From a bacterium (GTDB lineage: Bacteria > Hydrothermota > Tepidihabitantia > Tepidihabitantales > Tepidihabitantaceae), in the NCBI GenBank assembly GCA_035505375.1, contig DATJQV010000075.1:10673-74672 (forward strand): 64,000 bases of DNA, written 5' to 3'. Shown here piece by piece: positions 8,985 to 28,062 of this stretch. Below the pieces are notes generated by a model. The model had not been told where the DNA came from and searched no databases. It saw nothing but the letters and a program-made list of their open reading frames with translations. Every line of letters begins with the position of its first letter. The first letter of the stretch is position 1. The translations under genes were made by a program, and so were the position numbers.

Positions 8985-9053
8985 GATGTCGGTGCCTTCG
9001 GTTCAAGTATGCGCAGCCGCGTGCAACAGTCAAGCGGCCGTTTCCGCCATCGA

Positions 9054-9081
9054 TTGACCCTCGTGAGACCTGCGCTATATT
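9054..9081 (+). promoter_or_regulatory. sigma70-like promoter TTGACC-N16-TATATT upstream of the 9106 gene
   Basis: TTGACC at 9054-9059 and TATATT at 9076-9081. Confidence 0.4.
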
Positions 9082-9105
9082 GGCCTGTGCCTGCCGGCTC
9101 GGACT

Positions 9106-10314
9106 ATGCGCAACGCTTCTGAACACATGGTGAAGAAAGACCCCCGACCGCTCGAACGTGCAGGCAGAATCGCTGCCGCACTGCTGTTGCTTGCCGGCAC
9201 AGTCGCGGCCGCGCCCGAATTGACCGTGGCCTATCACCTCGATGACCACGCGGCGCCGCTGTTCGACGCCTGCCTGTACCCGAAGGACTTCAGCGCCCGC
9301 TACGGCCTGTTCCTGAGGCAAGCCGAGCCACGGCTGAGTTACTCGCTGATAGACGGGAAGAGCAACACTCTCAAGTTACGCCTGGCCTACTGCGGCAGCG
9401 ATTCGGCGGTCCTTGCCGCGCTGCTATCCGGCCGCGCGCAGGTCGGGATCCTGGCATCCGAGGACGTGCTCGCGGCAGTCATCCAGGGGCAGCCGGTAAG
9501 AATCATAGCTCCACTTCAACGCGCCAGCGACGTGCTTGTCGTCAATCGTTCTGTTCCAGCCAGGAACTGGAAAGAGTTCGCCGCGTGGGCCAAGGCGCAG
9601 AACCGGCCGGTGCTAATCGGCTACCTGGGCCAGTACTCGATGGCAGCACTGGGATTCGCGCAGGCGCTCGAATGCGATGGCATAATCTACTCAACAACCC
9701 TACCCGGCAGCACTCCACACTCAAGCAGGCAGGGGTTTGGCGTCGGGGAACTGGGAACGAAAGACGTCCAGCTCATTCAGGCAGATGACCGTGCTGAGCT
9801 GGCAACGGAGCTCTCGTATGGCAGATTCGACGCGGCCTTACTTCAGGAGCCGGCGGCAACCTGGGTAAGCTCGCTCCGCGGGTGTCCGGCCATCGGCCGC
9901 ACCGACATCCTGCCGCCGGGTCGGTTCGAAGACCGCCCTGGCACTGTCGTTGCCGCGACCGAATCAACCATCGCCACGCGAGGCGATGACGTAGGCCGCT
10001 TCCTTGAACTGATGGCCGTTGCGACCCACTACGCGAACAACCACACTCGGAATACGCTTGCGGCGGTCAACTTGTGGCTAGGACTTTCACCAGAGCTGGA
10101 GAGCATTCCGCTCCGCAGCATGGGCTTCTCCTCGCGGCCGGACTTCTCCTTCACCGACGGCATCTGGAACTGGTACTTCGCCCTGCGCCTGAGAAACGCC
10201 CTGCCGCAGAACCTGGCTGGATACATGGAGGAGAAAGACTGGCTGGGTGTGCCCTATGACTCGCTGCTGCTCATTCCGGCGCTCGACCGCGCCGGCGCGA
10301 GAATCATACGCTAG
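9106..10314 (+). CDS. putative periplasmic substrate-binding protein (NMT1/SsuA/TauA-like fold, tentative)
   Basis: Signal-like N-terminus (AAALLLLAGTVAAAPELTVAYHLDDHAAPLF) and an alternating beta-alpha pattern typical of type-II periplasmic binding proteins. There is no diagnostic motif, so the product call is weak. Confidence 0.5.
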   Translation: MRNASEHMVKKDPRPLERAGRIAAALLLLAGTVAAAPELTVAYHLDDHAAPLFDACLYPKDFSARYGLFLRQAEPRLSYSLIDGKSNTLKLRLAYCGSDSAVLAALLSGRAQVGILASEDVLAAVIQGQPVRIIAPLQRASDVLVVNRSVPARNWKEFAAWAKAQNRPVLIGYLGQYSMAALGFAQALECDGIIYSTTLPGSTPHSSRQGFGVGELGTKDVQLIQADDRAELATELSYGRFDAALLQEPAATWVSSLRGCPAIGRTDILPPGRFEDRPGTVVAATESTIATRGDDVGRFLELMAVATHYANNHTRNTLAAVNLWLGLSPELESIPLRSMGFSSRPDFSFTDGIWNWYFALRLRNALPQNLAGYMEEKDWLGVPYDSLLLIPALDRAGARIIR

Positions 10315-10320
10315 CGGTTC

Positions 10321-10490
10321 GGACAAAGCAGAATTCAGAGATCAGAAACCAGAATGCAGAATGATGGAACCGAGAAGCGAAGCTGCAGCCCGGTCGGCAA
10401 TTCTGATTTCTGGTTTCAGTATTCTGATTTCACTATTGTCCGATGCATTGCTGGTTCTGACTTCTGGCTTCTGAATCCTGAGTTGTCGGA
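10321..10490. repeat. intergenic inverted-repeat element of the GGACAAACCAGAA...TTCTGGTTTGTCC family (REP/MITE-like)
   Basis: GGACAAAGCAGAATTCAGAGATCAGAAACCAGAATGCAGAATG ... CATTCTGATTTCTGGTTTCAGTATTCTGATTTCACTATTGTCC. More than 12 copies of the same family occur elsewhere in the window. Confidence 0.65.
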
Positions 10491-10494
10491 CCGG

Positions 10495-11736
10495 CTACGC
10501 TCTGCGTAACTCGCCAGCGTCTGCAACTAGTTCTGTCGGTCGTCCCCGGCTCATGAAATCGAGCAGGCTCATCGTATAGCCATATGCGCCCGCGTTGAGC
10601 AGGCCCACGAGGTCGCCGGGTTTCGGCATCGGCAGGTGTTCATCCTTGGCGATGCAATCCAGCGGCGTGCAAATCGGGCCGCACACGTCCACCCGCCTCA
10701 ACCCTCGTCCCTCGTCCCCCGCCCCTCGTCCCTCATCTAGCCGGTTGAGAAGTCGGGCCGGATGCCTGATGCGCATGAACACCGGCCGCGAAAACGCGTT
10801 CATGCCGCCGTCGCAGATTGCGAACACCCGGCCCCGTGACTCTTTCACCCGCACCACGCGGGTGACAAACACGCCTGCCTCGGCCACGAGAAATCGCCCG
10901 CTCTCGAAGAGCAACCGGCAGTTTGGATTCTCAGCACGAAACGCCGCCAGCGACGCGGACACGGCCTCGGCCAGCCCGGCCAGGTCCAGCTCCGTGTCGC
11001 CCTCGTTCTGCGGCACGCCGAACCCGCCTCCGAAGTCAACGGTCTCCAGCTTGAACCCGATTTCCAGGCTCAGCCGCCGCGCCAGCTTGAACACGTATTC
11101 GATGTGCGTCCCGAGCCACACCTTGTCCAGCACCTGGCTTGCCGAGTAGACCTGGATTCCCGCGATTCTGGCGTTTTCCAGCTTTGCTCCGGTCACGTCC
11201 GTCACGACGCGCTCCTCGTCGAACCCGAACTTGCTCGGGCCGCCGACCATCACTTCCTTGGCTTCGGGCTGCGACTCCTTCGTGTTGATACGAAGGAGCA
11301 CTCGGGGCCTCACCGCCAAGCTGCGTGCGGCAGCCTCGATCAGTTCGAGGTCTGAGGCCGAATCGGCGACGATTGCGTGAACGCCGGCCCGCAGCACCTG
11401 CTCGACGTCGGCCGCACTCTTGGCCGGCGCCACATAGACGATATTCTCGGGAGTGAACCCTGCGGCAAGTGCCGTCGCGAGCTCCTTCGGCGAGCTGACC
11501 TCGGCGCCGGAACCGGAACGCCTCAGGATGTCGCAGACCGACGGGTTTGGATTTGACTTAAGTGAATAGCAGATGTCGAACGCGGGGAAGCTCTGCTTCA
11601 GCAGCCGTAGCTTCGTCCTGATCGCCGTGGCTGAGTAGAGGTAGAGCGGAGTCTGGTATTTGGCCGCAATCTCCTCCAGCGTCACGCCATCCGCCACGAA
11701 CCGGCCATCCTTCACGAAGAAATCATCAAAGCGCAT
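10495..11736 (-). CDS. PLP-dependent decarboxylase of the Orn/DAP/Arg decarboxylase family (fold type III); most likely diaminopimelate decarboxylase
   Basis: PLP-lysine motif YSLKSNPN (compare YAVKAN). The C-terminal motif VCGPICTPLD resembles the LysA CGPLCESGD motif. The GGGFG glycine loop is present and the length is 413 aa. Confidence 0.75.
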   Translation of the reverse strand: MRFDDFFVKDGRFVADGVTLEEIAAKYQTPLYLYSATAIRTKLRLLKQSFPAFDICYSLKSNPNPSVCDILRRSGSGAEVSSPKELATALAAGFTPENIVYVAPAKSAADVEQVLRAGVHAIVADSASDLELIEAAARSLAVRPRVLLRINTKESQPEAKEVMVGGPSKFGFDEERVVTDVTGAKLENARIAGIQVYSASQVLDKVWLGTHIEYVFKLARRLSLEIGFKLETVDFGGGFGVPQNEGDTELDLAGLAEAVSASLAAFRAENPNCRLLFESGRFLVAEAGVFVTRVVRVKESRGRVFAICDGGMNAFSRPVFMRIRHPARLLNRLDEGRGAGDEGRGLRRVDVCGPICTPLDCIAKDEHLPMPKPGDLVGLLNAGAYGYTMSLLDFMSRGRPTELVADAGELRRA

Positions 11737-12732: not shown

Positions 12733-12930
12733 TCAGCTCCTGACAATAGTAAACTCAGAATGCAGAATTAAGGAGGACGGGGGTCGAGGATTCAAGGAAT
12801 CTAGGGGTCTAGTGACCGGAAGCGAAGGTCCGCATCCATCTGTGTTCATCCGTGTTAATCCGTGGTCGGCAACTTCGGCCCCGACCCTGAACTCCGATCT
12901 CCCGTTTCTGGTTTGTCCATCCATGGCGGT

Positions 12931-14259
12931 CTATCGCTCTGCCATCCTCTGCCTCAGCCAATCTCCGAGTTCGGCCGCCAAAGCCTGCTCATGCTCAAGA
13001 TAATTGTGCGGCGCGCCCTCGATGACGACACCGGAAAACGACAGGCAGTTATCAAGGCACTCGGCAATCCCCTCGACGAAGCCTTGCGCCGGGCCGACAA
13101 AGTACTCCTCGACCGTACCGACCGCGAGGAATACGGGCACCTCGACCGCCGCGAGTTCCGGAAACTCCTCCTGGTCGGTGCGGCTGATGTTGAAGATGCC
13201 GGTCAGCGACTTCGGGCCATAGGCTTCAACGAAAGTCCGCGCGGAAACCGGGCCCTCATAGAACCGCGGAGGCATCAACTCCGTCTCCCGCCCCTGCCGA
13301 ACCAATCGTTTGGCATAGGCAAGCGCCTTGGGGAACGTCGCGCCCAACTTCTCATGAATCCAGCCCTGCGTATCAGCCGGAGAAAGCAGGATGAGCCCGG
13401 CGACGCGAGGGTCGCGCGTCCTGGCAAGGTAATGGACGACCTTCATCGCGCCAAGGCTGTGCCCCTGCAGAAACACCTTCCGGCAGCCGCGCGACTCAGC
13501 GAAGTCCACCGCCGCCTTCACATCCGGCAAGCAGTCGCCAAAACGCTCAAACATCCCTCCCACCTGCACATAGTCCAGCCGCTCCGCCACCTTTGGCTTT
13601 TGGCTTTTGGCCTTTGCCTTTTGACTTGAGCCGTCTCCCTCTTTTGTCTCCAGTTCTACATTCTGGTTTCTGGTTTCTGACTTCTGGTTTCTCCGACTCC
13701 GCAGCATGTCTGCAACTTCTGTCTGAGGAAAGTCGAGCTCCGGTTCCCGCTCGCGCAATTCTGAATTCTGGTTTCTGGTTTCTGATATCTGGTTTCTCCG
13801 ACTCCTCAGTACGTCTGCAATATAGTCGTGTCCGCGGTTATTGAACGCCGCAAATGAGATGCCGCTCCGTCGGCATGCGTCCGCCGCGTAGTCTATGAAC
13901 CGATTCTCATAGAAGTTCCCATCCCACCCGTGAACATGAACCAGGCAGAAGGGACTAGGGGCTAGGGGCTGGGGATTAGGGCCCGAAAACCTCGTCTCTT
14001 GTCCCTCGTCCCTCGTCCCAGCGGGTTGGTACATCCCACTGAGTTCCAAGCCATCGTCGGTCACGATGCGACACAGCTCGCCGGGTATGCTGCGAAAACG
14101 GGGACTGTACCGCGCCGTGTTTGATGCAGGCGCTCCGAGGGACTGTCCCCGCTTTCGAAGTAAGCTTCTCGCGTCGCTCCGTGGACGTGTCCCCTCCCTG
14201 GGACTGTCCCCATTTTCGCGGTGCCGGGACTGTCCCCGCTTTGGAATTGGTGTCTTCAC
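12931..14259 (-). CDS. alpha/beta-hydrolase-fold protein (GHSLGA nucleophile elbow) interrupted in-frame by a ~200-bp repeat-element insertion; true start probably downstream of the annotated M
   Basis: N-terminal hydrolase segment LVHVHGWDGNFYEN (HG oxyanion motif) and C-terminal segment VFLQGHSLGAMKVVHYL (GxSxG). Between them lies LRSRRNQISETRNQNSELRE...LRSRRNQKSETRNQNVELETKEGDGSSQKAKAKSQKPKVAE, which is the translation of two GGACAAACCAGAA-family repeat copies plus AAGCCAAA repeats. The extreme N-terminus runs through GGGACTGTCCC repeats. Confidence 0.55.
   Translation of the reverse strand: MKTPIPKRGQSRHRENGDSPREGTRPRSDARSLLRKRGQSLGAPASNTARYSPRFRSIPGELCRIVTDDGLELSGMYQPAGTRDEGQETRFSGPNPQPLAPSPFCLVHVHGWDGNFYENRFIDYAADACRRSGISFAAFNNRGHDYIADVLRSRRNQISETRNQNSELREREPELDFPQTEVADMLRSRRNQKSETRNQNVELETKEGDGSSQKAKAKSQKPKVAERLDYVQVGGMFERFGDCLPDVKAAVDFAESRGCRKVFLQGHSLGAMKVVHYLARTRDPRVAGLILLSPADTQGWIHEKLGATFPKALAYAKRLVRQGRETELMPPRFYEGPVSARTFVEAYGPKSLTGIFNISRTDQEEFPELAAVEVPVFLAVGTVEEYFVGPAQGFVEGIAECLDNCLSFSGVVIEGAPHNYLEHEQALAAELGDWLRQRMAER
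13625..13830. repeat. two tandem copies of the CAGAAACCAGAA repeat element plus AAGCCAAAAGCC microsatellite, embedded in-frame in the hydrolase CDS
   Basis: TTCTGGTTTCTGGTTTCTGACTTCTGGTTTCTCCGACTCCGCAGCATGTCTGCAA occurs twice about 95 bp apart. It is preceded by GGCTTTTGGCTTTTGGCCTTTGCC. Confidence 0.6.
14064..14235. repeat. cluster of GGGACTGTCCC(CGCTTT) repeats plus a CTCGCGTCGCTCCGTGGACGTGTCCC unit; the same family reappears at 61300..61495
   Basis: GGGACTGTACCGCG, GGGACTGTCCCCGCTTTCG, GGGACTGTCCCCATTTTCG, GGGACTGTCCCCGCTTTGG and CTTCTCGCGTCGCTCCGTGGACGTGTCCCCTCC. Compare CGTTCTCGCGTCGCCCCGTGGACGTGTCCCTTCG at 61455-61490. Confidence 0.55.
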
Positions 14260-14394
14260 GGCTACGATTTTACCCTTCCCTGCCTGCTCTGCAATCGGTG
14301 CGGCCCTGCCCGCGCCGAGCGCCAGGGATTACCTGTGTCGTTACCGGGACTTCGCCGCGCCGACCTTCTGCAGGAACTCCGGAATGCTGCCGAC

Positions 14395-14525
14395 CCAGAA
14401 ACGGCGGAATCCCTGTGTGCTGTATCCTGTCTACTGTCTACTTCGGGCAGTATGCAGCATACAGCACGCAGCATGCAGGTCGTATCCCTGAATGCTGTAT
14501 TCTGTCTACTGTCTACTTCGGCAAG
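14395..14525. repeat. direct repeat of GCTGTATYCTGTCTACTGTCTACTTCGG (2 copies) flanking CAGCATACAGCA-type motifs; family shared with 25445..25560, 25990..26075 and 39218..39245
   Basis: tgctgtatcctgtctactgtctacttcgg ... cagtatgcagcatacagcacgcagcatgcag ... tgctgtattctgtctactgtctacttcgg. Confidence 0.5.
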
Positions 14526-14543
14526 CATCCCGATTCGTGCCCA

Positions 14544-14861
14544 TCACTCGGTCGTCGAAGTTCGTTGCTCGGCGGATTCGTTCATCGCTTCCGGCCACGA
14601 ACAACGTTGTACGAACCAACGATGAACGATGTCTGCCTGCGCGTCATCCTGAATCTGCCCATAGACGCCTTTCGCAAGCAGCCCGGCGTTGTTGAGGAAC
14701 TTCAGCCGCTGGCGTCGCCCTTGAAGCGGCTCAATCCTCACGCCCCGGCCGACCGATTGCAGGATAAACTTCCGGGCGTCCGTGCCGACTCCTATGTTGA
14801 TGAAGTTGGCGACATTCGGCCGGTTCGAGTCCCAGCCCTCATAGAAGCTACGCGACCCCAT
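14544..14861 (-). pseudogene. remnant resembling the C-terminal helicase motifs V-VI of a restriction/defence helicase
   Basis: ORF MGSRSFYEGWDSNRPNVANFINIGVGTDARKFILQSVGRGVRIEP... carries a QxxGRGxR-type motif preceded by PNV...hhhh, as in SF2 helicase C-domains. There is no upstream helicase N-domain. Repeat-dense DNA lies on one side and the defence operon on the other. Confidence 0.3.
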
Positions 14862-15091
14862 GAGGAAAGGCTAAGGTTAAGGCTTAGGCCGAGCCGGTCT
14901 CAACCTCAACCTTGACCTCAACCTGGCTCATCGTGGCGCTCGTTCACCTCGTACCCGACCAGCTCGTCCTTGAGCCAGCCCGAGACGTCGCCGATTCTAG
15001 TCAGGGCGACTTAGCCAGCGACCGGATAATGGGGGAGTTTCCCTCGCGGGTTCTAAAGAACGGTGTTTATCAACCAGCCCACTGTCCATCA

Positions 15092-15718
15092 TTACCCCGA
15101 AAGGAGTTGGCCAGATGCCTTCCCGACCGGTTCTCCCGCAGAGTGGATTAGCACAGTCGGACCTAGTTCCACAGCTTCCCTGCCTGTGGTAAAGGCAAGC
15201 CCGTACGCAGTGCCGAATGAACCCGCGGGATCACCGCGACCTGGCTCCTTCACGATGACCGCCAGAAGTTCCTGGTCTTCATCCAGAGGGTAGTTCCTCA
15301 CGTCACTCTTGAGTGCCTCCAACCTGGGCCTCACGCTCCTCTCATAGGTCGTCCCTGCAAACCCAACGAAGATGAGTTTGGGGCTCTTCGACGCCAGGAG
15401 TTTCTGAAAGTCGTATCGTATCGCAGGGAGGCTGGCTTGGCATTCGTATTCACACGCAAGTTCTACTGACTGGAAACCGTCGGCACCAACTTTTCCCTTA
15501 GTGAGAAGGAAGTCCCACAGCCATTCATGGCTGTTGGTCTCGGGTCGCGGGCAGTTGGCCGTAGTCGGTCCGGTTTGGCATTGCATGTCCTCGGATCGAC
15601 CGAGCGCGTACAGGTACTCGGCGACTGTAGGTTCCCATGTCCCCTCCCACACACTGTGCTTGGCCATGATGGCTCCACACAACCCAACGTACAGCGCTTG
15701 CGCATCAGGAAGCGCCAC
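15092..15718 (-). CDS. hypothetical protein (208 aa), last gene of the SIR2-HerA-GIY-YIG operon
   Basis: Follows the GIY-YIG gene after a 27-nt gap on the same strand. Amino-acid composition is ordinary. No recognisable motif was found. Confidence 0.5.
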   Translation of the reverse strand: MALPDAQALYVGLCGAIMAKHSVWEGTWEPTVAEYLYALGRSEDMQCQTGPTTANCPRPETNSHEWLWDFLLTKGKVGADGFQSVELACEYECQASLPAIRYDFQKLLASKSPKLIFVGFAGTTYERSVRPRLEALKSDVRNYPLDEDQELLAVIVKEPGRGDPAGSFGTAYGLAFTTGREAVELGPTVLIHSAGEPVGKASGQLLSG

Positions 15719-15745
15719 CGAATCCTCCAGTCATGGTCCTTTGAC

Positions 15746-16228
15746 TCAATGCTCCTTACCCTTGTAGATAGAGAACTCCGGTCGTAGCGCTGCTATGGCA
15801 AAGGCCTCTTTAACTTGGCGCTCCTTCTCGTTCGTGTCCTCGAAGAAACGGTACCCACAGCTCTCTCTCATGAAGCGCTTGGCTTCATCGTGGTCATACG
15901 CGCAGTCAAAGTGCACCAAGGCATTGCGAAGCTGCGAAGCGTGCTTGTCTCCCATCAGGTGATTCTGGTACAGGCGTTGGCGCAAGTTCTTGGTTGTCCC
16001 GACATACACGATTCCTGCGTAAGGCCCACGCGTGATAGAGATGGCATAAATCCCACCGGTCGTGGGTAGCTTGCTTGGCACAAGCGTTCTGAACGGCCGC
16101 GCCCGCGACGCCAAGAAGTCGTCAAGCCATCGGCCAAGGGCTGCGAGTTGGGTCCTTGCGCGATCCCGGACGGGGCCGTTCAGTATTGAGTTGGTGGACA
16201 TGATGTGCGTCTCCTCATCCTGCTTCAC
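15746..16228 (-). CDS. GIY-YIG nuclease family protein
   Basis: GGIYAISITRGPYAGIVYVGTTKNLRQRLYQNH contains the GIY ... YVG ... R ... N signature. The start overlaps the HerA stop by 14 nt, suggesting translational coupling. Confidence 0.75.
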   Translation of the reverse strand: MKQDEETHIMSTNSILNGPVRDRARTQLAALGRWLDDFLASRARPFRTLVPSKLPTTGGIYAISITRGPYAGIVYVGTTKNLRQRLYQNHLMGDKHASQLRNALVHFDCAYDHDEAKRFMRESCGYRFFEDTNEKERQVKEAFAIAALRPEFSIYKGKEH

Positions 16229-17945
16229 TCCATTCCTTCACGAAGCGCGGGTCGTCCGATTTGGGTTCTGGGTCAGGCCGCACTACCGAGACTCGTTGAG
16301 GGAACGGAACTGCGTTGCCCATCACGACTGCCTGCCCTCTCGGCAGACCAGGTATCTCCTTGAGTGTCAGCTTGTCCGCAACTTCGGCACCCGAGGACAC
16401 CGCTTTCTGGTCTGCTTCATTCGTAAGCCTGAATACGAACCAAGTGCCACATTGAGCCAAGACAGTCGGCGACAGCTCGCCTGGCCTCTGCGTACATACC
16501 ATCAGCGAGAGTCCGAACTTCCGTCCTTCCTTGGCCAGCCGTTCGTAGGCCAGCGCCTGACGGACGCCCTCCTCTTCGCCGGGCAACTCCCTTAGGTAAT
16601 GGTGTGCCTCCTCTAGGATGAGCAGCGTGGGATGCGTCTTTCCAGGACCTCGCTTGAATATCTCGGATGCATACGCTTCCAAGAGTGAGCCTAGGACAAA
16701 TGGCATCAAGTCCTTTGTGACTGAGCTTAGGTCCACGAGGTGTACACGCCACCCCCTCTTGCCGCTCCTTTTCTTTCCGAAGAACTTCTCTACCATCATG
16801 CGGCTCTCACATGTCCAGTCGAGCTGCGCGTCACAGGGCTCACCTCCCTCAACGTCGACCACATCGAGGAACCTGGGGTCCTCCGTGAGTCCACGTATGC
16901 GATTGACTAGCGAGCAGACGTGTCCATAGAGAAAGGCATCCCGTGTCGGGACGTTGTTTCTGTCTCTCTTGAGTACGTACCACTCAGCCGCAAGACAGGA
17001 CAGCGCCCGCATGTGAGGCCATTGATCCGCCTTCTTGGCCTTGTTGGACCTGATGTCTTCGAGTGCCTTCAGCGCGAGGTCCGCGCCAGAGTTCCGGCAG
17101 TCGTCAAAGAGCTCGTTGGAGTCACGATCAGTGAGTCGCGCTCCTTCTTTGTCCGCTACAACGTATTGCAGATGCTCGACCGCAAACCGGAAAGCAGGCA
17201 TCTGTGCCCGGTCGCTGGGCAGCACCAGCCGCGCAAGACCATTGCGGCCAAGTGCGTAGTAGGGAATCCGATAGCCGCTTCCGAGTTTGGTTACCTTAAC
17301 ACGTACCCCTAGTCCAGATACCGCAGGCGCGTACTCACCATTCACGTCGAATATGATAATGCGCGAACGCGGGAGAGTGAACAGCTGTTGGGCTAGAGCT
17401 GCCACGAAGTGCGTCTTGCCTTGGCCAGTACCGCCCAGTACGGCCGAGTGCCGCGAGAGCAGTGAGTTGATGCCGACGACGACCTCTGCAGTTCCAGAGC
17501 GAGCATCCCATCCGAGGCTGAGCGGCCTGTCGTTCGCTGGCAGTGCATGTAGGGCCACGTGCAGTTCTGCGTCGGACAAAGGGAACGCCTCCGCGCCGAG
17601 CGCTGGCAGCTTCCATGATTCGGCCACGAAGTGCAGCGCTCCATTCTCTCTTTGGATATACCCAATAGACGCCGTGCTCATTTGTCTTAGAGGCTCGTCG
17701 AACGACTCTGTTGTACCGACACCGCGCGTGTGTGCTTCGCGCGGCTCCATGAACTCGACGGACTGCACCTTCACGATGACTAGAAGGGCACCCGTCGGGA
17801 TGCCCAGGTAATCTCCTGGTTGGGCTACCGAAGAAACGCCGCCCTCGTGCGCGGCCACCTGCCCTTTGTGTGTTTCAAGCAGATTGAGGACTATGGTGGC
17901 CCCGTCGACTTTCACAACGTAGCCTACGGCCGACCTGCCTCTCAT
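16215..17945 (-). CDS. herA: HerA-like (DUF87/FtsK-HerA superfamily) ATPase/helicase of a SIR2-HerA defence system
   Basis: Walker A LGGTGQGKT and Walker B TLLILEEAHHY. The HerA-typical MVCTQRPGELSPTVLAQCGTWFVFRLTNEADQKAV is present. The start overlaps the SIR2 stop by 4 nt. Confidence 0.85.
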   Translation of the reverse strand: MRGRSAVGYVVKVDGATIVLNLLETHKGQVAAHEGGVSSVAQPGDYLGIPTGALLVIVKVQSVEFMEPREAHTRGVGTTESFDEPLRQMSTASIGYIQRENGALHFVAESWKLPALGAEAFPLSDAELHVALHALPANDRPLSLGWDARSGTAEVVVGINSLLSRHSAVLGGTGQGKTHFVAALAQQLFTLPRSRIIIFDVNGEYAPAVSGLGVRVKVTKLGSGYRIPYYALGRNGLARLVLPSDRAQMPAFRFAVEHLQYVVADKEGARLTDRDSNELFDDCRNSGADLALKALEDIRSNKAKKADQWPHMRALSCLAAEWYVLKRDRNNVPTRDAFLYGHVCSLVNRIRGLTEDPRFLDVVDVEGGEPCDAQLDWTCESRMMVEKFFGKKRSGKRGWRVHLVDLSSVTKDLMPFVLGSLLEAYASEIFKRGPGKTHPTLLILEEAHHYLRELPGEEEGVRQALAYERLAKEGRKFGLSLMVCTQRPGELSPTVLAQCGTWFVFRLTNEADQKAVSSGAEVADKLTLKEIPGLPRGQAVVMGNAVPFPQRVSVVRPDPEPKSDDPRFVKEWSEAG

Positions 17946-19261
17946 AAGTCGATGCGTCCCCGCCGTACCTCTTGTGGCCCGATGCCGTTCTCCATCTCAT
18001 CGTCGTCTGTGGTCTCGTTGACGGCTGACAACTTCAGAAGTGGAGCTAGCAAGGCCCTAGCTCGTTCGCTGAACTCATCGAGGAGGGTCGGTTCAGGGAG
18101 GTCGCGGACGAACTCCTCGAAATGCGCGCGATCAGCGTTACCCACCACAGTCACCTGCGGCGATTGGAGCTTGACGAACTTGCTGAGCTCTGAGCCTGCC
18201 TTATCCAGGGACACTTCGTCTATCTTGGCAGCCTTATCAAACGAAACCTCAGGTGCGTAGATGATCATCTGTAGCGTCGGGTTCTGCAGCGCGCTTAGCA
18301 ACACTCGGTTGACGTGAACGTCACCAAAACCATAGCCGTTTATCAAGATCGTTGTCTGTGGTCTGGCTAGGAAGTCGCCGAGGCGTCTGAACAACTCGCC
18401 GAAGAGGTAGTCTGTGGTCTGCATGTACTTTGACGTCCCCGGCATGACTACGAGATCCGGCCATTCCGCACCGACCTCGTTGTCTACCAGCTTCTTCAAC
18501 TTTCCCCATATAGCATTGCATGCTACCTCGCGCACGTGGCCCTCCTGGTTCAGCCTCCATGTTAGAGAGCCGTGCAGCTTAGCCAGATAGAAGTGATAAG
18601 AACCGAACCTTGCTTCGCCGCGGGCAAGGACGTTCCTATAGGCAAGGTCGAAGTTGTGCGGTGCGAATGTCCGATTGTGAAGTCCGCTGAAGCCGTTAAT
18701 CGCCATGAGACGCATCGACTCGGCTGCCCACTCCAAGGCCAAGTCATAGTTGAGGGTGAAAGCCCACGGGGCGGGTTGCCCTGGCTGTCTCGATGCGACC
18801 AGTCGACCCAGGAGCTTGCGGTGCGTGGATAATGACTCTGCGTCGTCGCAACGCGTCGGATGCCCAAATAGCTTCCTGTCGAGCAGTGTAGCCGAGACCA
18901 GAGTCCTCAAGAGCGCCAACCTATGCAACCTGAGCTTGTCTAGACCTTTGGCCTTCTGCCTCTCCCACTCGGCCTCGGCAGTCCTCAATGTGTCCAGCAA
19001 AGTCTCGACGTTCACGCCGGCAGCGTCGCCATCCGACTTGGTCACGAACCCCTCGGCTATCAGCCATTGAAGGCCGTCGGGACTGGATTGCTCGAAGTCA
19101 GTCCACACTTCTGACATCGTCTTACCGCCGACCTCATGGGAGGCACCGGCTCCCAGCAGTACGCCCACATTCTGAAGCCTCATCGCAGCAGCAATGTGCG
19201 ACCGTAGCTCTCTCGTGGTCATCATTCTCTCGCCTCTTAGCGCGACGTTAGACTCAGCCAT
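17942..19261 (-). CDS. SIR2-like (SIR2_2 family) NAD+-binding/NADase protein, partner of HerA
   Basis: GVLLGAGASHEVGG matches the GAGxS Rossmann motif, FTLNYDLALEW matches TxNYD, and KLHGSLTW matches the HG motif. Its position immediately upstream of herA matches the known SIR2-HerA gene order. Confidence 0.8.
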   Translation of the reverse strand: MAESNVALRGERMMTTRELRSHIAAAMRLQNVGVLLGAGASHEVGGKTMSEVWTDFEQSSPDGLQWLIAEGFVTKSDGDAAGVNVETLLDTLRTAEAEWERQKAKGLDKLRLHRLALLRTLVSATLLDRKLFGHPTRCDDAESLSTHRKLLGRLVASRQPGQPAPWAFTLNYDLALEWAAESMRLMAINGFSGLHNRTFAPHNFDLAYRNVLARGEARFGSYHFYLAKLHGSLTWRLNQEGHVREVACNAIWGKLKKLVDNEVGAEWPDLVVMPGTSKYMQTTDYLFGELFRRLGDFLARPQTTILINGYGFGDVHVNRVLLSALQNPTLQMIIYAPEVSFDKAAKIDEVSLDKAGSELSKFVKLQSPQVTVVGNADRAHFEEFVRDLPEPTLLDEFSERARALLAPLLKLSAVNETTDDDEMENGIGPQEVRRGRIDL

Positions 19262-19549
19262 AGTGTCCTCCTAGAAAAAGAAACAGAACGCTACTCGCAT
19301 ACACAACCCTGTCATCTGCGGCTCAGTTCTGGGGGCTGGCTTGCCTGCATGGTAGAGCTCACACAGGGCAGGGCCAAGCTGGCTCGGATAGGACTGACTC
19401 CAGAGTGACGGCACGACCTTCCAATCACTTCCGCTCCAGGAACTGCCGGATGGCGGGGATGCAGGCGGCGAGACCGGCTCCGGTTCGCGGGCGGGCTTCC
19501 GTCACTTCCCTTCTGATGCGCTTCTGGAATCGCCCCGTAGCACACACCG

Positions 19550-22500
19550 TCATGGGTTATGCCTGAAGCCCAGTGCTTCAGCAGCCTCCCAAAGAACGCG
19601 AGCAGTTTCCTCAAGCTCTGCGGGGAGCTTCCTGGCGCTCTCGTGGTATTGTCCAATCGTGAAGGCTAAGTTCCGAGCTTTCGGAGTCAGGTGATCATCC
19701 ATCTTCGCCCATCTGGCCAGCGCGTACCAGGCGGCAGCCTCCGCGGAGGCCTTTGGGCTTGTGGTCTGACGGATAGCTGGGGCGGGTCTGAGCCGAGACC
19801 TGACTTGTGGCCTAACTTCCTTGGCGACAGCCTCTACGGCCGTCGGGGCGACTTCCCACTCGAATGGCGTCTGCGTGGGTGCCTGGCGCGCGGGACTCAC
19901 TTGAGCGTGGTAGCTTGGGGCCGGTAACTCCGCCAGGACACGGACAACCTGCTCAATGCACTGGTCGCGGCTGTGCCAGTACTTACGTGAGGGCACACGG
20001 AAGACATGCCACCCCGCTCTTTCTAGGATGTGCTGGCGCTCGATGTCCTCGATCCTCAACTCGCCGGCGTCATCGTAGTGAAACCGCCCGTCACACTCAA
20101 CTGCCAAGCGCCGTCCGCTTGCGTCGGTCACAACAAGGTCGATGCGGAATCCGCAGGCGGGATATTGGGGTATTACGTTCAGGCCCCGCCGCTCAAGGAG
20201 CATGCACACATCCTCTTCGAACGGGCTGTCATGCACGCTCAGCGCTGGGATGGGACCGCAGTTCGGGTTCTTACAGTGAATCAAGAAGTCTCGAACTAAA
20301 CCCGCAGGGAACTCGCTGACGTCCATGCTTGTGTAGCAGATCACTTTCTTGCGCGCTCGGGTGAAGGCGACATTCATGCGGCTTTCACCTCGATTCGCCT
20401 GCTGAATGGCTAGTACGACGCCTGGGTGCGAGTTTGGGGCGTACCTGAAAGAGTAGAAGATCACATCCCGTTCATCACCCTGGAAGCCATCGACCGTGGA
20501 CGCGATTAGTGGTTCGCGCGCAGACCTCGTCGCTAACGTGCTGTCATCAATTAGGATATCTTCAAGCTTGGCCCTTATGTAGGCTGCCTGCTCCCTGTAG
20601 AGCGATAGCACGCCGAATGACATGTTTTCGTACGCCGGGTCACGCATCCGGCGCGTCAAATCAGCGATGAGCAGATCAGCTTCCTTCTGGTTCACTGAGT
20701 TCTCATCTTCGAGTGCCCCTTGCACGTGAATGACCTCAAAGGCGCCACCCACCGGTGCGGCGGCACCATGGGTCATTATCCTGAGCTGATTGGAATAGAA
20801 CCTCGAGTTGGAGAAGGCGATGATCTCCGGCAGGCTGCGGTAATGCTCATTGAGAAACACCTTCCTTTCGCGCCACAGGGCGACTAGATCCAGCAAGGAT
20901 GATTCCAACACGTCAAAGGCAAACGCCTTTGGGAGGGCGTCTATGCCATATCGACGCTTGATAAGGGCGTTGGTAGGCACTGGAAAGAACATGAGGTCTG
21001 AGTTCGGAAGCTGCTTCTCGTCACCGACCACGATTGCCGACTTCGCCCTGTACAAGAGCGGCAGTGCTCCCATAAGGTGGCATTGCGACGCCTCGTCGAC
21101 TATCACCACGTCGAATAGTCCCGGTTCGAGAGGGAACACCCTGCAGACGTCATTCACATTCATGACCCAGCAAGGCAGCACGTCAAGGATTCTGCTGAAA
21201 TTGACGTCGTTCTTGAGCCGTTCGAAGCTCTCGAAGTTCCTCCTGCTCCTTCTCAGTGCCTTGCGCAACGTGGCAACATCACGCCCCACATCGCGAGACG
21301 CGTACTGCCGGCCGAGGTTTGTGTCGACGCGCCGACGCAGGAGTTTTGCCGTGTTTTCGGCGAGATCGTGCTCGTTCTTCTTAATGGCGACCGCAACGCT
21401 CGCAGTGTCGTGCGGATGAGAGCACAAGTCCGCTTGGACGGCCTCGTTGAAGCGACGCGCTCTCACGAGCCGAAGCAACTGGTCGCGGCCCAACGGTTGC
21501 TGCAGCACTCGTGGCGTCGCGGTCTCATCGCGGAGCCACGCGGCCAAGTGCGGGCCCAACGCAGGTTCCGCCTGCCTGAGCGCAGCAAACTGCTCGATTG
21601 AGAGGGCGAGCCTCCGCATAACCTCAGCAGTTTCCCGCAGTTTCTTGTATTTGTTACCCTCCGTCAACTGAAGCACCTCGTATGCCGAGGCGATCGGCTT
21701 CATGTTCGCGCATGCCGCTACGAGTTCGTCACCCTTCACCAACGCAGACAGAGCCTTCGTGACGATATCAATATGCTCCTTGGCGGATGCGACGGAGAGT
21801 AGGTCGTCAATGGACAGGCAATCAAAAGGTTGTTCTCGCAAGGCCAGCTCGACAGCGGATTGGAGATCAGAAAGGGCTAAGACGTCGAGCAGCCTCCGTG
21901 ACTGCTTCAATAGGGTTGTTGTGTCTCCAGCGCGCGCGGCCAACACGAAACTGTTCTGGCAGAGTTCCACGGGGAGACGACGTGCTAGGTCGGTTATCTC
22001 GGCGCGTGCTCGCATCCTCTGCCAACGTCTCCGCATGTGGTACCAACGGCAATCACGGTTGGCCCTTACTTTCTCTGCAATACTGATCATCCGCGTGAGG
22101 TCATCGCGAGCTGTGCTGCGCATGTCATCATCATATACGCTGAGCGCGGCGGCCTGCTCCCGCAATAGCCCGACATCATCGTATCTTTGTCGCATCAGTT
22201 CCAGGCACTGAGCGAATTGTATAGCGTGCGGCTCGACCTTTCCTATTGCCTGAAGTATGCGACTGGCAAGACTAGGCGAGAACGCCTGGTCAGCAAGCAG
22301 GTCTGTCTTCGTCTGCACTACGCCATCGGCAGCCAGCAGTTCTCCCAGGGTGGCGAGTATGCCGGCAAGCGAAAGCATGCCATTCGCAACCGTCGTGGGT
22401 TCCTCGTTGAGGAGAGGCATCGACTGAGCCCAGGAGGATAACACTCTCCACCAACTGCTGGGCTCGAATCCCGCACTTCCCGACGCGAACCTCCGCAAGT

Positions 22501-23938
22501 AATCCTGCATACGTTGCACGAGCTGCTCGTCCTCCATGTCAGGTAATCTGATGTCGGACGGCATGACGTCATCAGATCGAGTCGCGTGGTATGACCTGAA
22601 CAGCGGTTCGCTTTGGTGCTCCTGCTGTCTGGCGGCAGAGAAACTGTTCGACAACTCAGCAGCATTGTGTCTGAGGCCGACTCGTTCCATCTCAAGGCTC
22701 GACAACGACCTGCTCAGCAATTCCGCTCTGCTGGTTTGCAGGTGAGCGTCAATGGCCTGCAGTTTCTGCTGCAGAAGGCGTTTGGACTCTGCGTCATCCC
22801 TCAGGAGGGTCATTGACAGGTATTCCACGCCGAGCTCGTTCAGTTTGTCGGAGACGACCTCCAGGGCTTTGTTCTTCTGGCTCGTCACAAGCACGGACTT
22901 TCCTTCCGCTACCAGATGGCACACGAGGTTACAGATGGTCTGAGATTTCCCGGTGCCCGGCGGCCCTTGGACTTCCACTAGTCGATGGCTATCTACACAC
23001 GAAAGAACACTGCGTTGCGGCGGATTACTTGCGAAGGGGAAGATGCAGTCCACTGTCTCCTCGCCGCTAGGCGACTCCTCTGCAGCAGCGTCTACCGGCT
23101 GCGAGGCGTCGCCGAACATTGATGCCAACACTGAGCCCTCTACTGACAAGTCTGGATCCGCCAGAGCTGCAAGGTTGCTCTGGAGGTAATACTGCGGATT
23201 CGCGACTAGCAGTAATGCTGCACAGGGCATGACGTCCAGCCGTGGACCAGCTGCTGCCCGCCCCCGGGTTAGTTTTTCTAGTGTCCACTCCCAGTCGAGT
23301 GGAGGTGCGAAGGCGGATGTTGCGTTCGCCACTGTTCTCACGAATTCAGTGAAGTCGGCATCCGCGAGGGGAAGCGATGGCACTCTGAGGTCCCTTACGG
23401 ACAACTCGAAGTAGTGTTGTTGCTGCTCAGTCAGGAGCTTTGGCCAAACCTGGGAGTTGAAAGTCAGACTATCATTGACTAGACGGATCTTCACCGCCGA
23501 AGTCGGTAGGTCGACTGTAACCGCGCAGCGAACGGTAAAGAGTGGCGCGCATATCCGGACGTCTCGCGGGCCGACTCCGACTAGGAAGGGGTAGCCGTAA
23601 ACGATCTCGCGTTCATATGGGTTCAGTACCTGTCTCTGGTGGAGTCGCTTAAGTCGGTCGAATGCGACGGCCGGATCGTTGTTCGCCGGACCTTCGGACG
23701 AGTGTAGCTCAGCAGCCGCTGGGATGTCGAATAGCTCTTCGCGCGCGCTCGGCGGCCTGATGGTAGCCTGTCCTGTACCCTTGAAGAGCGTCTCGGCGTT
23801 TTGCAGAAACGACATGTCAACATAGTCATGCACGCCCGCTTGGAACACATCCGTCAGGTGTTTGTTGGCAGCGTCATAGGTGAGTTTTGTTACGGCTTGG
23901 TAGTACTGGGCGAGTCGGCTTATATCGGAACTAGTCAT
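19550..23938 (-). CDS. giant SF1 (Upf1/DNA2-like) helicase with N-terminal DUF4011-like region and C-terminal DUF559/Vsr-like endonuclease domain; architecture of the single-gene Hhe defence system
   Basis: Walker A VQGPPGTGKSQTICNL and motif II FDVVIVDEASQ. The AAA_12-like motifs NEHYRSLPEIIAFSNSRFYSN and STVDGFQGDERDVIFYS are present. The C-terminal IDLVVTDASGRRLAVECDGRFHYDDAGELRIEDIERQHILERAGWHVFRVPSRKYW is DUF559-like. The protein is 1462 aa long. Confidence 0.85.
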   Translation of the reverse strand: MTSSDISRLAQYYQAVTKLTYDAANKHLTDVFQAGVHDYVDMSFLQNAETLFKGTGQATIRPPSAREELFDIPAAAELHSSEGPANNDPAVAFDRLKRLHQRQVLNPYEREIVYGYPFLVGVGPRDVRICAPLFTVRCAVTVDLPTSAVKIRLVNDSLTFNSQVWPKLLTEQQQHYFELSVRDLRVPSLPLADADFTEFVRTVANATSAFAPPLDWEWTLEKLTRGRAAAGPRLDVMPCAALLLVANPQYYLQSNLAALADPDLSVEGSVLASMFGDASQPVDAAAEESPSGEETVDCIFPFASNPPQRSVLSCVDSHRLVEVQGPPGTGKSQTICNLVCHLVAEGKSVLVTSQKNKALEVVSDKLNELGVEYLSMTLLRDDAESKRLLQQKLQAIDAHLQTSRAELLSRSLSSLEMERVGLRHNAAELSNSFSAARQQEHQSEPLFRSYHATRSDDVMPSDIRLPDMEDEQLVQRMQDYLRRFASGSAGFEPSSWWRVLSSWAQSMPLLNEEPTTVANGMLSLAGILATLGELLAADGVVQTKTDLLADQAFSPSLASRILQAIGKVEPHAIQFAQCLELMRQRYDDVGLLREQAAALSVYDDDMRSTARDDLTRMISIAEKVRANRDCRWYHMRRRWQRMRARAEITDLARRLPVELCQNSFVLAARAGDTTTLLKQSRRLLDVLALSDLQSAVELALREQPFDCLSIDDLLSVASAKEHIDIVTKALSALVKGDELVAACANMKPIASAYEVLQLTEGNKYKKLRETAEVMRRLALSIEQFAALRQAEPALGPHLAAWLRDETATPRVLQQPLGRDQLLRLVRARRFNEAVQADLCSHPHDTASVAVAIKKNEHDLAENTAKLLRRRVDTNLGRQYASRDVGRDVATLRKALRRSRRNFESFERLKNDVNFSRILDVLPCWVMNVNDVCRVFPLEPGLFDVVIVDEASQCHLMGALPLLYRAKSAIVVGDEKQLPNSDLMFFPVPTNALIKRRYGIDALPKAFAFDVLESSLLDLVALWRERKVFLNEHYRSLPEIIAFSNSRFYSNQLRIMTHGAAAPVGGAFEVIHVQGALEDENSVNQKEADLLIADLTRRMRDPAYENMSFGVLSLYREQAAYIRAKLEDILIDDSTLATRSAREPLIASTVDGFQGDERDVIFYSFRYAPNSHPGVVLAIQQANRGESRMNVAFTRARKKVICYTSMDVSEFPAGLVRDFLIHCKNPNCGPIPALSVHDSPFEEDVCMLLERRGLNVIPQYPACGFRIDLVVTDASGRRLAVECDGRFHYDDAGELRIEDIERQHILERAGWHVFRVPSRKYWHSRDQCIEQVVRVLAELPAPSYHAQVSPARQAPTQTPFEWEVAPTAVEAVAKEVRPQVRSRLRPAPAIRQTTSPKASAEAAAWYALARWAKMDDHLTPKARNLAFTIGQYHESARKLPAELEETARVLWEAAEALGFRHNP

Positions 23939-24034
23939 GGAAGCTCAATGGAACACTCCCGGCATTCCGAGCCTCCATCGGGGGTTTGGCGAAGCTAAGT
24001 CTTTGAGGGCAAGGTCTTTGAGGACCTGCAGTTG

Positions 24035-24385: not shown

Positions 24386-25432
24386 CTATACCCGCTTCCA
24401 CTTCGCGTCCGGGCCGCGTCCGAGGCATCCGAGTCTTCCCGCCTTGCGTTCGTTGCGCAGGATGCGGCGGATAAGGTCAATGCCGACGTTGGGGCAGCGC
24501 TCAAGGACGTCGCGGGCCGAGAAATCGCCGGATATGTGCTCAAGCATGTCCAGCACGAGGGCGGTCTTGCTGCCGCGTCCGGTCGCGACCAGGCCGACCC
24601 GGCGTTCAAATTCCTGGTACGCCCCGACCAGCATCACGCCGAGGAAGTACTCAAGCCACGGCGTCAGATCGTGTTTGGCCTGATGCCAGCGCTGGGAGGA
24701 ACGGTAGAGCGTGTCGTAGTAGCCGGGTTTCGTGTCTTCGACAACCCGCTCCAGGCTGACGTACCTGCCGACTTCGTAGCCGGCACGGTAGAGAAGTTGC
24801 AGCGTGAGCAGGCGTGCCAGTCTGCCGTTGCCGTCGCTGAATGGGTGAATACACAGGAAGTCGAGGACGTAGGCGGCAATGAGGAACAGCGGTTCAATGT
24901 CGCCTTGGTCCCAGCGAAGGTCGAACCGCTCGTGCAGCGTCGCCATGGCCGCAGGCGTCTGGCGTACGCCGACCGGGACGAACTGCACGACCCGGATTCC
25001 CTCAGGCATGACCGCAACGATCTTGTTGTTCTTTCGCTTCCAGTGCCCGCCTTGTCCCGGGACCAGCCGAAACACCTGCCCGTGCAGGGCCAGCACCGAT
25101 GGCGCGTTGAACGCCATCCGGACGTGGTTGGCGTGAATCGAGTTGAGCGCGTCGCGGTAGCCCGCAATCTCCTGCTCCGACCGGTCCCGCGGCCTGGTTC
25201 TCCTCGCAACCAGCTCGCGAATCCTCTCCGGGGACGCGGTAACGCCCTCTATCCGGTTCGACGATTCAGTGCTCTGGATGATGGCCACTTGTCTCAGCGT
25301 TTCGAGAACCTGCGGTGCTTGCTCTTTGAACAGGTCCTGCCTGCCCTTGTATTCGCCCAGCAGTCTGACGGTCTTGAGCAGGTTCTGACTGACCGGCACG
25401 CGCTCCAGGTAGCCGGTCTTGAACGAGTTCAC
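24386..25432 (-). CDS. fic: Fic family protein (Fic_N + Fic + C-terminal wHTH)
   Basis: Fic motif HPFSDGNGRLARLL. The N-terminal Fic_N-type motif STESSNRIEGVTASPERI (SxxxEG inhibitory-helix pattern) is present. The length is 348 aa. Confidence 0.85.
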   Translation of the reverse strand: MNSFKTGYLERVPVSQNLLKTVRLLGEYKGRQDLFKEQAPQVLETLRQVAIIQSTESSNRIEGVTASPERIRELVARRTRPRDRSEQEIAGYRDALNSIHANHVRMAFNAPSVLALHGQVFRLVPGQGGHWKRKNNKIVAVMPEGIRVVQFVPVGVRQTPAAMATLHERFDLRWDQGDIEPLFLIAAYVLDFLCIHPFSDGNGRLARLLTLQLLYRAGYEVGRYVSLERVVEDTKPGYYDTLYRSSQRWHQAKHDLTPWLEYFLGVMLVGAYQEFERRVGLVATGRGSKTALVLDMLEHISGDFSARDVLERCPNVGIDLIRRILRNERKAGRLGCLGRGPDAKWKRV

Positions 25433-25985: not shown

Positions 25986-25989
25986 GCTA

Positions 25990-27970: not shown

Positions 27971-28062
27971 AAGAATTAGACAAGAATTGACGCGCCACCT
28001 CACGAGTCCGCGCCGCCCTCGGAATCCTCGAAAGCGCGGTGCTTTCTGCTATAATACCACCC

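What the first reader, a model, noticed from the sequence alone, without database searches (positions are those of the whole stretch)
15092..19261. SIR2-HerA defence pair expanded into a tightly coupled four-gene operon with a GIY-YIG nuclease and an unknown 208-aa protein
- SIR2 (17942..19261) and HerA (16215..17945) overlap by 4 nt in the canonical SIR2-HerA order.
- HerA is followed, with a 14-nt overlap, by a GIY-YIG nuclease gene (15746..16228).
- After a 27-nt gap comes a 208-aa ORF (15092..15718) with no recognisable domain, on the same strand.
- Described SIR2-HerA systems are two-gene modules. HerA elsewhere pairs with a nuclease (NurA in archaea, DUF4297 in DUF4297-HerA).
- A dedicated GIY-YIG nuclease plus an orphan protein, translationally coupled to SIR2-HerA, would be a previously undescribed variant.
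- It could combine NAD+ depletion with DNA cleavage, or the fourth gene could be a sensor or regulator.
Basis: partly seen in the sequence, partly recalled or inferred. Interest (0 to 1): 0.8.

Follow-up and report, generated by a model that had tools for sequence, protein, structure and literature searches.

The report
SIR2-HerA defence pair with neighbouring nucleases
This is an ordinary two-gene SIR2-HerA anti-phage system in a defence island; the two small predicted nuclease genes packed behind it are found with SIR2-HerA only here, so they look like neighbours, not new parts of the system.

Summary

In 97 other HerA loci (59 non-redundant SIR2-HerA loci with downstream sequence), none carries a relative of either extra gene. 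The only close GIY-YIG relative (70% identity) and seven other contexts of the 208-aa family lack SIR2-HerA. The two extra genes also never occur together elsewhere. Other SIR2-HerA loci have unrelated defence genes (HNH, Mrr, DrmMI-like) just as tightly packed after herA.

Most likely this is defence-island cargo co-transcribed with SIR2-HerA in one lineage. Interest is low to moderate. The small residue of novelty is the uncharacterised nuclease-like family.

The parts
17942..19261 (-). SIR2-family NADase gene (439 aa) of a canonical SIR2-HerA system
   Evidence: NCBIfam NF042942 SIR2_antiphage 504 bits, cutoff 500. PADLOC PDLC02186 E=6.7e-157. Agrees with 74 of 75 columns that are >=95% conserved among 62 SIR2 partners of HerA.
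16215..17945 (-). HerA ATPase/helicase gene (576 aa), 4-nt ATGA overlap with sir2
   Evidence: PADLOC PDLC04100 E=3.4e-244. NCBIfam NF042943 792.3 bits, cutoff 800. Pfam DUF87. Walker A GGTGQGKT and Walker B LLILEEAHH are present and invariant in homologues.
15746..16201 (-). Small GIY-YIG nuclease gene (151 aa from ATG 16201; the longest ORF starts at GTG 16228)
   Evidence: Pfam PF01541 27.2 bits, cutoff 22.6, covering only the N-terminal half of the profile. GIY (GGIYAIS), YVG (IVYVGTT), Arg (LRQRLY) and Glu (EKERQVKEA) are conserved with P0004 at 70% identity. The weak best PDB sequence match is T4 endonuclease II, E=0.09.
15092..15718 (-). 208-aa gene of an unnamed protein family with a predicted restriction-endonuclease-like fold
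14868..14924 (-). Long imperfect hairpin about 170 nt downstream of ORF208; possible end of the transcription unit (no U tract)
   Evidence: RNA fold of 14862-15110, minus strand. Not reported by the consensus terminator scan. Inference only.
19550..23938 (-). Separate neighbouring defence gene: 1462-aa SF1 helicase fused to an MTES_1575 restriction-endonuclease domain, 288 nt upstream of sir2
   Evidence: Pfam AAA_11/AAA_12/MTES_1575. PADLOC PDC-S37 E=2e-90 and Hhe. NCBIfam ProA/Hhe, below cutoffs.
14544..14861 (-). 105-aa remnant resembling an internal piece of a Type III restriction enzyme (decayed island cargo)
   Evidence: PADLOC REase_III E=3.4e-5, matching profile positions 606-664 of 1154.

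Best explanation
The locus is a canonical two-gene SIR2-HerA abortive-infection system embedded in a horizontally acquired defence island of roughly 12.9-27.5 kb; only 12.9-24 kb is marked by lowered GC3, and the Fic/bAvd-like/DUF433 genes extend it to about 27 kb.

- Core system (inferred from published work, not tested here): HerA assembles with SIR2, and on phage infection the complex depletes NAD+. Published systems also show ATPase, helicase and nickase activities.
- Extra genes: directly behind herA lie two small genes that are independent island cargo. One is a GIY-YIG nuclease of 151 aa. The other is a 208-aa member of an unnamed family, predicted to have a BamHI/NucC-like restriction-endonuclease fold with a D-ExE-K type acidic site.
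- Transcription (inferred): in this genome they are packed so tightly (13-nt and 27-nt spacers, each with its own Shine-Dalgarno) that they are probably transcribed with sir2-herA from the promoter region in the 288-nt gap upstream of sir2.
- Role (inferred): they are not conserved components of SIR2-HerA. They most likely act as stand-alone nucleases, for defence or for maintenance of the element.
For: Shown:
- Canonical SIR2-HerA with intact motifs.
- Island genes at 12.9-24 kb have GC3 of 0.63-0.72, against 0.75-0.84 in flanking genes.
- Neighbours are other defence or mobile-type genes: PDC-S37/Hhe-like helicase-nuclease, Type III REase remnant, Fic, bAvd-like, DUF433.
- No relative of GIY-YIG or ORF208 in 97 other HerA loci, by tblastn or profile HMM at E<=1. 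59 non-redundant SIR2-HerA loci have >=700 nt downstream.
- The only close GIY-YIG relative (70% identity) lies after a BglII R-M and a GHKL-ATPase/DUF4145 pair, with no SIR2, HerA or ORF208 relative.
- ORF208-family members lie in seven other contexts, none with GIY-YIG or HerA: kelch-like genes; CARF6 plus ORC/CDC6-like; a TPR protein gene; convergent genes without clear family matches (L116); solitary beside IS21; beside IS66/AAA/WYL/Fic; and two uninformative short contigs.
- Downstream neighbours of herA elsewhere are mutually unrelated: HNH type II-like, Mrr type IV-like, DrmMI-like, unknowns. Some have apparent start/stop overlaps.
- Published descriptions treat SIR2-HerA as a two-gene system with its own nickase (PMC11472057, PMC13434337).
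Against: - The very short spacers, shared strand, shared composition and lack of a detectable terminator or promoter between the genes are what a true operon would also show.
- Both extra genes are so rare (one or two close relatives among 5.8 billion protein clusters) that absence elsewhere has limited power. The nearest SIR2-HerA relative is only 58% identical, so no near-isogenic locus could be compared.
- Three of 59 other loci also carry a recognisable nuclease (HNH twice, Mrr once) right after herA. This could hint at a recurrent accessory-nuclease slot.
Confidence: 0.62

Rival explanations
1. A lineage-specific four-gene system. The GIY-YIG and the REase-like 208-aa protein are true accessory effectors or regulators that work with the SIR2-HerA complex, for example by degrading DNA once HerA is activated.
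For: - 13-nt and 27-nt spacers with Shine-Dalgarno sequences, same strand, no terminator between the genes.
- Same composition as sir2/herA.
- HerA-family ATPases pair with nucleases in other systems (NurA, DUF4297; established knowledge).
- HNH or Mrr nucleases follow herA closely in L059, L061 and L052.
Against: - Zero co-occurrence in 97 HerA loci.
- Relatives of both genes live without SIR2-HerA.
- Equally tight downstream neighbours elsewhere belong to clearly different systems, e.g. DrmMI-like and type II/IV REases.
- The canonical complex already nicks DNA (PMC13434337).
Confidence: 0.12
2. GIY-YIG plus ORF208 form their own two-gene module, independent of SIR2-HerA. This could be a pair of nucleases, or a nuclease and its partner, that merely shares the transcript.
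For: - Only 27 nt separate them.
- Related small GIY-YIG genes sit just upstream of nuclease-type genes in other islands: a BsuBI/PstI-family REase on B. cereus plasmid pBCK802, and a 43-aa ORF plus DUF6998 in L002-L007.
Against: - The closest relative of each gene lacks the other: L001 has no GIY-YIG and L002-L007 have no ORF208-family gene.
- ORF208-family members are often solitary, with 200-350 nt upstream gaps.
- The three GIY-YIG contexts have three different partners.
Confidence: 0.16
3. The two small genes are decaying or functionless island remnants, like the adjacent Type III REase fragment. Alternatively, ORF208 is not a nuclease at all.
For: - A Type III REase remnant lies immediately downstream.
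Against: - Both ORFs are full length relative to their homologues, with conserved starts and conserved catalytic-type residues.
- ORF208 gives a confident model with pLDDT 88.5.
Confidence: 0.1

Closest known systems
SIR2-HerA anti-phage system (Gao et al. 2020 type, also called Nezha; PADLOC PDLC02186/PDLC02185; NCBIfam NF042942/NF042943)
   Same: sir2 lies directly upstream of herA with a 4-nt overlap. Both proteins match the family models over their full length, with Walker A/B and conserved SIR2 residues intact.
   Different: - Only 58% identical to the nearest HerA in public data.
- HerA scores 792 bits against an NCBIfam equivalog cutoff of 800.
- Two extra small nuclease-type genes follow herA here, and in no other sampled locus.
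DUF4297-HerA and archaeal HerA-NurA (HerA ATPase paired with a nuclease)
   Same: A HerA-family ATPase sits next to predicted nucleases, one of them with a PD-(D/E)xK-like fold.
   Different: - ORF208 has no DUF4297 or NurA match (Pfam at E<=10).
- HerA here belongs to the SIR2-partnered clade and keeps its SIR2 partner.
- The nucleases are downstream and not conserved with it.
BamHI/BglII/BstYI-type restriction endonucleases and the cyclic-oligonucleotide-activated nuclease NucC
   Same: - The D...ExE acidic signature recalls BamHI's D94/E111/E113 (established knowledge; the mapping was not verified by superposition here).
   Different: - No sequence or profile similarity.
- Foldseek is not significant.
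- No DNA methyltransferase gene was found among the ORFs scanned between 8.3 and 31.3 kb, and no cyclase or CARF gene was seen beside ORF208. One family member does lie near a CARF6-like gene.
Small stand-alone GIY-YIG nucleases (T4 endonuclease II, UvrC/Cho N-terminal domain type)
   Same: The GIY / Y(V/I)G / Arg / Glu motifs are present. The weak best solved match is T4 EndoII, and NCBIfam gives weak hits to UvrC-like GIY-YIG regions.
   Different: - A 48-aa N-terminal extension of unknown role.
- No DNA-binding domain of homing-endonuclease type.
- Only one close relative known.

Membership tests
SIR2-HerA defence system | SIR2-family protein matching the system-specific model | tested here: met
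   NCBIfam SIR2_antiphage 504 bits, cutoff 500. PADLOC PDLC02186 E=6.7e-157 over 5-408.
SIR2-HerA defence system | HerA-family ATPase matching the system-specific model, with Walker A/B | tested here: met
   PADLOC PDLC04100 E=3.4e-244 over the full length. NCBIfam HerA_antiphage 792.3 bits, just under the 800 equivalog cutoff. GQGKT and EEAHH are invariant.
SIR2-HerA defence system | sir2 and herA adjacent, co-directional, sir2 first | tested here: met
   4-nt ATGA overlap. Same order in 84 comparison loci.
SIR2-HerA defence system | Conserved SIR2 residues retained | tested here: met
   74 of 75 columns >=95% conserved among 62 homologues agree; the one deviation is E to Q near the N-terminus. 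These residues were not mapped onto published catalytic residues.
SIR2-HerA defence system | NAD+ depletion and phage protection | not testable with these tools
   Needs phage-challenge and NADase assays.
Proposed four-gene SIR2-HerA variant | GIY-YIG and/or ORF208 relatives recur next to SIR2-HerA in other genomes | tested here: not met
   0 of 97 HerA loci (59 non-redundant SIR2-HerA loci with >=700 nt downstream), by tblastn and HMM at E<=1. The only repeats of the arrangement are 100% identical contigs of the same organism.
Proposed four-gene SIR2-HerA variant | GIY-YIG and ORF208 relatives co-occur with each other | tested here: not met
   L001 (ORF208 homologue) has no GIY-YIG. L002-L007 (GIY-YIG homologue) have no ORF208-family gene. 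Six further family contexts are also negative.
Proposed four-gene SIR2-HerA variant | Single transcription unit | tested here: inconclusive
   Spacers of 13 and 27 nt, and no consensus promoter or terminator between the genes. The scan is at background level. Needs RNA-seq or RT-PCR.
GIY-YIG nuclease superfamily | GIY-YIG catalytic domain with GIY, YIG, Arg and Glu motifs | tested here: met
   Pfam PF01541 27.2 bits, cutoff 22.6, profile positions 2-43 of 78 only. The motifs are readable in the sequence and conserved in P0004.
PD-(D/E)xK restriction-endonuclease-like fold (BamHI/NucC type) for ORF208 | Alpha-beta-beta-beta-alpha-beta core with acidic residues on strands 2 and 3 | tested here: inconclusive
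   [not shown]
DUF4297-HerA system | DUF4297 nuclease partner of HerA | tested here: not met
   Neither extra protein has a DUF4297 hit in Pfam at E<=10. HerA best matches the SIR2-partnered PADLOC models.

The most novel reading that the evidence does not exclude
In this poorly sampled lineage, SIR2-HerA has recruited two dedicated nucleases, a GIY-YIG and a BamHI/NucC-like protein of a new family, into one operon as accessory effectors. It would be one example of a flexible 'nuclease slot' downstream of herA that is filled by HNH or Mrr nucleases in other lineages.
Probability: 0.12. Interest if true: 0.6.

Novelty: new member of a known kind. Interest (0 to 1): 0.3.

Why it matters
As it stands, this adds a divergent but canonical SIR2-HerA locus, and it shows that tight gene packing in defence islands should not be read as system membership.

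If the extra genes did turn out to cooperate with SIR2-HerA, that would show modular recruitment of nucleases by HerA-based systems.

Tried and rejected
- The first genome-contig scan with the single HerA protein returned only distant HerA relatives (23-35% identity) because its peptide patterns were too specific. A metagenome scan with an alignment gave the useful set.
- Single-sequence AlphaFold of ORF208 was useless, pLDDT 40. It was redone with the 55-sequence family alignment.
- Foldseek against PDB and BFVD gave no significant match. The afdb50 library was unavailable.
- The profile of the ORF208 family against PDB sequences gave 0 hits. hhalign against a BglII-family REase and against DUF6998 was negative. 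So I dropped the idea that DUF6998, the gene after the GIY-YIG homologue, is related to ORF208 or is a recognisable PD-(D/E)xK protein.
- No ORF208-family member was found in IMG/VR viral contigs, plasmids or, for GIY-YIG, phages.
- Composition does not separate the two extra genes from sir2/herA, so it cannot date a separate acquisition.
- Contigs from other samples carrying the same arrangement are 100% identical to the window. They give no independent or dN/dS information.
- Rfam found nothing in 13.8-19.8 kb.
Full report
**Observation**

The minus strand carries a run of ORFs:
- 19550-23938 (1462 aa)
- 17942-19261 (439 aa)
- 16215-17945 (576 aa)
- 15746-16228 (160 aa)
- 15092-15718 (208 aa)
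- 14544-14861 (105 aa)

The coordinates in the finding are correct.

sir2 and herA overlap by 4 nt (ATGA). The 576-aa HerA start is backed by N-terminal residues that are nearly invariant in homologues.

The claimed 14-nt herA/GIY-YIG overlap depends on the GTG at 16228. The only close homologue (P0004, 70% identity) and the public gene calls begin at the equivalent of ATG 16201 (MSTNS.../MSRNS...). That leaves a 13-nt spacer, with GAGGAG 9 nt before the ATG.

ORF208 starts at GTG 15718, 5 nt after GGAGGA. Its start is shared with homologue P0002 (MALP...).

**What the genes are**

*SIR2 and HerA.*
- SIR2 matches NCBIfam SIR2_antiphage at 504 bits (cutoff 500) and PADLOC SIR2 at E=7e-157.
- HerA matches PADLOC HerA at E=3e-244 over its full length. 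It matches NCBIfam HerA_antiphage at 792 bits, just under the 800 cutoff.
- HerA's Walker A (GQGKT) and Walker B (EEAHH) are present.
- SIR2 agrees with 74 of 75 columns that are at least 95% conserved among 62 SIR2 partners of HerA.
- So this is an intact, canonical SIR2-HerA pair. It is divergent: the best public HerA is 58% identical.

*The 151-aa protein.*
- It passes Pfam GIY-YIG at 27.2 bits against a cutoff of 22.6. The match covers only the first half of the profile.
- The GIY, YVG, Arg and Glu motifs can be read in the sequence.
- Its weak best solved relative is T4 endonuclease II.

*ORF208.*
- It has no hit in Pfam (E<=10), NCBIfam or PADLOC.
- The word-indexed search found only itself and one 43%-identical protein.
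- An exhaustive profile search of 1.84 billion representatives found 107 proteins at E<=1e-3. Most are 155-200 aa and align end to end.
- The family alignment shows invariant E90, E92 and D103. W66, L67, D69, F104, K106 and L107 are nearly invariant, giving the motifs EWLYD / LxxExE / IxYDFxKLL.
- No family member matches Pfam, PADLOC or PDB sequences meaningfully.
- With this alignment, AlphaFold gives pLDDT 88.5 and pTM 0.86.
- Foldseek against PDB and BFVD gives nothing significant. hhalign to a BglII-family enzyme is negative.
- I therefore treat "restriction-endonuclease-like nuclease with a D-ExE-K site" as a reasonable inference, not a demonstrated fact.

**Surroundings**

- Genes between about 12.9 and 24 kb have GC3 of 0.63-0.72. 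Flanking housekeeping genes have 0.75-0.84. The four genes cannot be told apart by composition.
- Upstream, after a 288-nt gap, lies a 1462-aa SF1 helicase fused to an MTES_1575 endonuclease domain (PADLOC PDC-S37 E=2e-90; Hhe/ProA-like).
- Downstream is a 105-aa remnant of a Type III restriction enzyme.
- Further along are Fic, bAvd-like and DUF433 genes, before the housekeeping GTPase Der.
- No DNA methyltransferase gene was found among the ORFs scanned between 8.3 and 31.3 kb.
- This is a typical defence island.

**Is the four-gene block a system?**

I collected 80 metagenomic loci encoding HerA 43-58% identical to this one, plus 17 more distant genomic HerA loci. 84 of them have SIR2 upstream.

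Neither tblastn nor profile HMMs of the GIY-YIG pair and the ORF208 family at E<=1 detect a relative of either extra gene in any of these loci.

Of 59 non-redundant SIR2-HerA loci with at least 700 nt downstream, 10 have a co-directional ORF of at least 100 aa starting within 60 nt of the herA stop. These ORFs are unrelated to one another, apart from one orthologous HNH pair:
- HNH_2 / type II-like: L059 (apparent 4-nt overlap) and L061.
- Mrr / type IV-like: L052.
- A DrmMI-like piece: L050 (apparent 31-nt overlap).
- Several ORFs with no family match.

So tight packing behind herA is common and involves genes of plainly different systems.

The extra genes' own relatives live elsewhere:
- The 70%-identical GIY-YIG (L002-L007) follows a BglII R-M and a GHKL-ATPase/DUF4145 pair. 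It precedes a 43-aa ORF and DUF6998.
- A more distant GIY-YIG relative on a Bacillus cereus plasmid precedes a BsuBI/PstI-family REase.
- ORF208-family members occur in the following contexts:
  - beside kelch-like genes (L001);
  - after a CARF6-like gene, an ORC/CDC6-like ATPase and a 271-aa unknown (L109);
  - after a TPR protein (L113);
  - followed by convergent genes with no family hit above cutoff, its upstream side lying off the contig (L116);
  - alone next to IS21 (L117-L119);
  - among IS66, AAA, WYL and Fic genes (L123-L124);
  - on two short contigs that show nothing more (L121, L122).
- None of these contexts has SIR2, HerA or a GIY-YIG gene.

The only other copies of the four-gene arrangement are 100% identical contigs of the same organism.

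**Mechanism**

The best-supported reading has four parts.
- SIR2-HerA works as the published two-gene system. Published descriptions report a HerA ATPase/helicase assembled with a SIR2 NADase, and NAD+ depletion on infection. For one E. coli type they also report an intrinsic HerA nickase (PMC11472057, PMC11514289, PMC13434337).
- Combining NAD+ depletion with DNA cleavage therefore needs no extra nuclease.
- The two small genes are probably co-transcribed passengers. The spacers are 13 and 27 nt, each gene has its own ribosome-binding site, and no terminator is detected until a long hairpin at 14868-14924.
- They most likely act as independent nucleases.

What is shown: the gene identities, the spacing, and the lack of conservation. 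What is inferred: co-transcription, nuclease activity of both small proteins, and their independence from SIR2-HerA.

**Limits**

- Both extra genes are extremely rare, and the lineage is poorly sampled. Absence elsewhere therefore cannot exclude a recent, lineage-specific recruitment. I give that reading about 12%.
- A separate GIY-YIG/ORF208 two-gene module gets about 16%.
- Three other SIR2-HerA loci with HNH or Mrr nucleases right after herA leave open a loose "nuclease slot" idea. Nucleases are so common in defence islands that this is weak.

**Verdict**

The identification of SIR2, HerA and GIY-YIG is correct. The claim of a new expanded SIR2-HerA system is not supported.

Novelty: a new, divergent member of a known kind. 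As a by-product, there is an unnamed family whose predicted fold resembles restriction endonucleases and which is worth cataloguing. Interest 0.3.

Noticed in passing
window 19550-23938 (-): 1462-aa SF1 helicase (AAA_11/AAA_12) fused to an MTES_1575 restriction-endonuclease domain. Best PADLOC match is the candidate system PDC-S37 (E=2e-90). It scores far below the NCBIfam cutoffs for ProA and Hhe, so it is a divergent single-gene helicase-nuclease defence candidate.
   Followed up: partly
window 14409-14528 and 14544-14861: A 105-aa remnant of a Type III restriction enzyme (internal profile positions only). It is followed by two 45-nt direct repeats (87% identical, 75 nt apart) containing an imperfect 24-nt inverted repeat. 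This looks like decayed island cargo or a small repeat element.
   Followed up: partly
window about 12900-24000, extending to about 27500: Low-GC3 island: 0.63-0.72 against 0.75-0.84 in flanking genes. Beyond the low-GC3 stretch it appears to continue with Fic (24386-25432), a 23S-rRNA-IVP/bAvd-like gene (25605-26066) and DUF433 (26317-26817), ending before the housekeeping GTPase Der (28039-29334). No integrase or flanking tRNA was found; the tRNA cluster lies far away at 59324-59990.
   Followed up: partly
[not shown]
   Followed up: no
L120 (B. cereus plasmid pBCK802, NZ_CP016597.1) 5926-10739; L002 4670-5851: Small GIY-YIG genes related to the window's sit directly upstream of other nuclease-type genes. 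On the plasmid these are a BsuBI/PstI-family REase followed by DUF262 + HEPN. In L002 they are a 43-aa ORF + DUF6998. Three contexts with three different partners; this could be chance in defence islands.
   Followed up: partly
L059 7773-8735, L061 7786-8742, L052 7902-8486, L050 7722-8867: Other SIR2-HerA loci have an HNH_2 endonuclease (two orthologous loci, 70% identity), an Mrr-type nuclease or a DrmMI-like ORF starting within -31 to +42 nt of the herA stop. This shows variable, tightly packed downstream neighbours.
   Followed up: partly
L002 6970-10449 and L109 1-3025: Both the GIY-YIG homologue's island and one ORF208-family member's island abut a 1159-aa Peptidase_C25 gene (with a Por_Secre_tail in L109). 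This suggests related host organisms and perhaps a shared variable region next to that gene.
   Followed up: no
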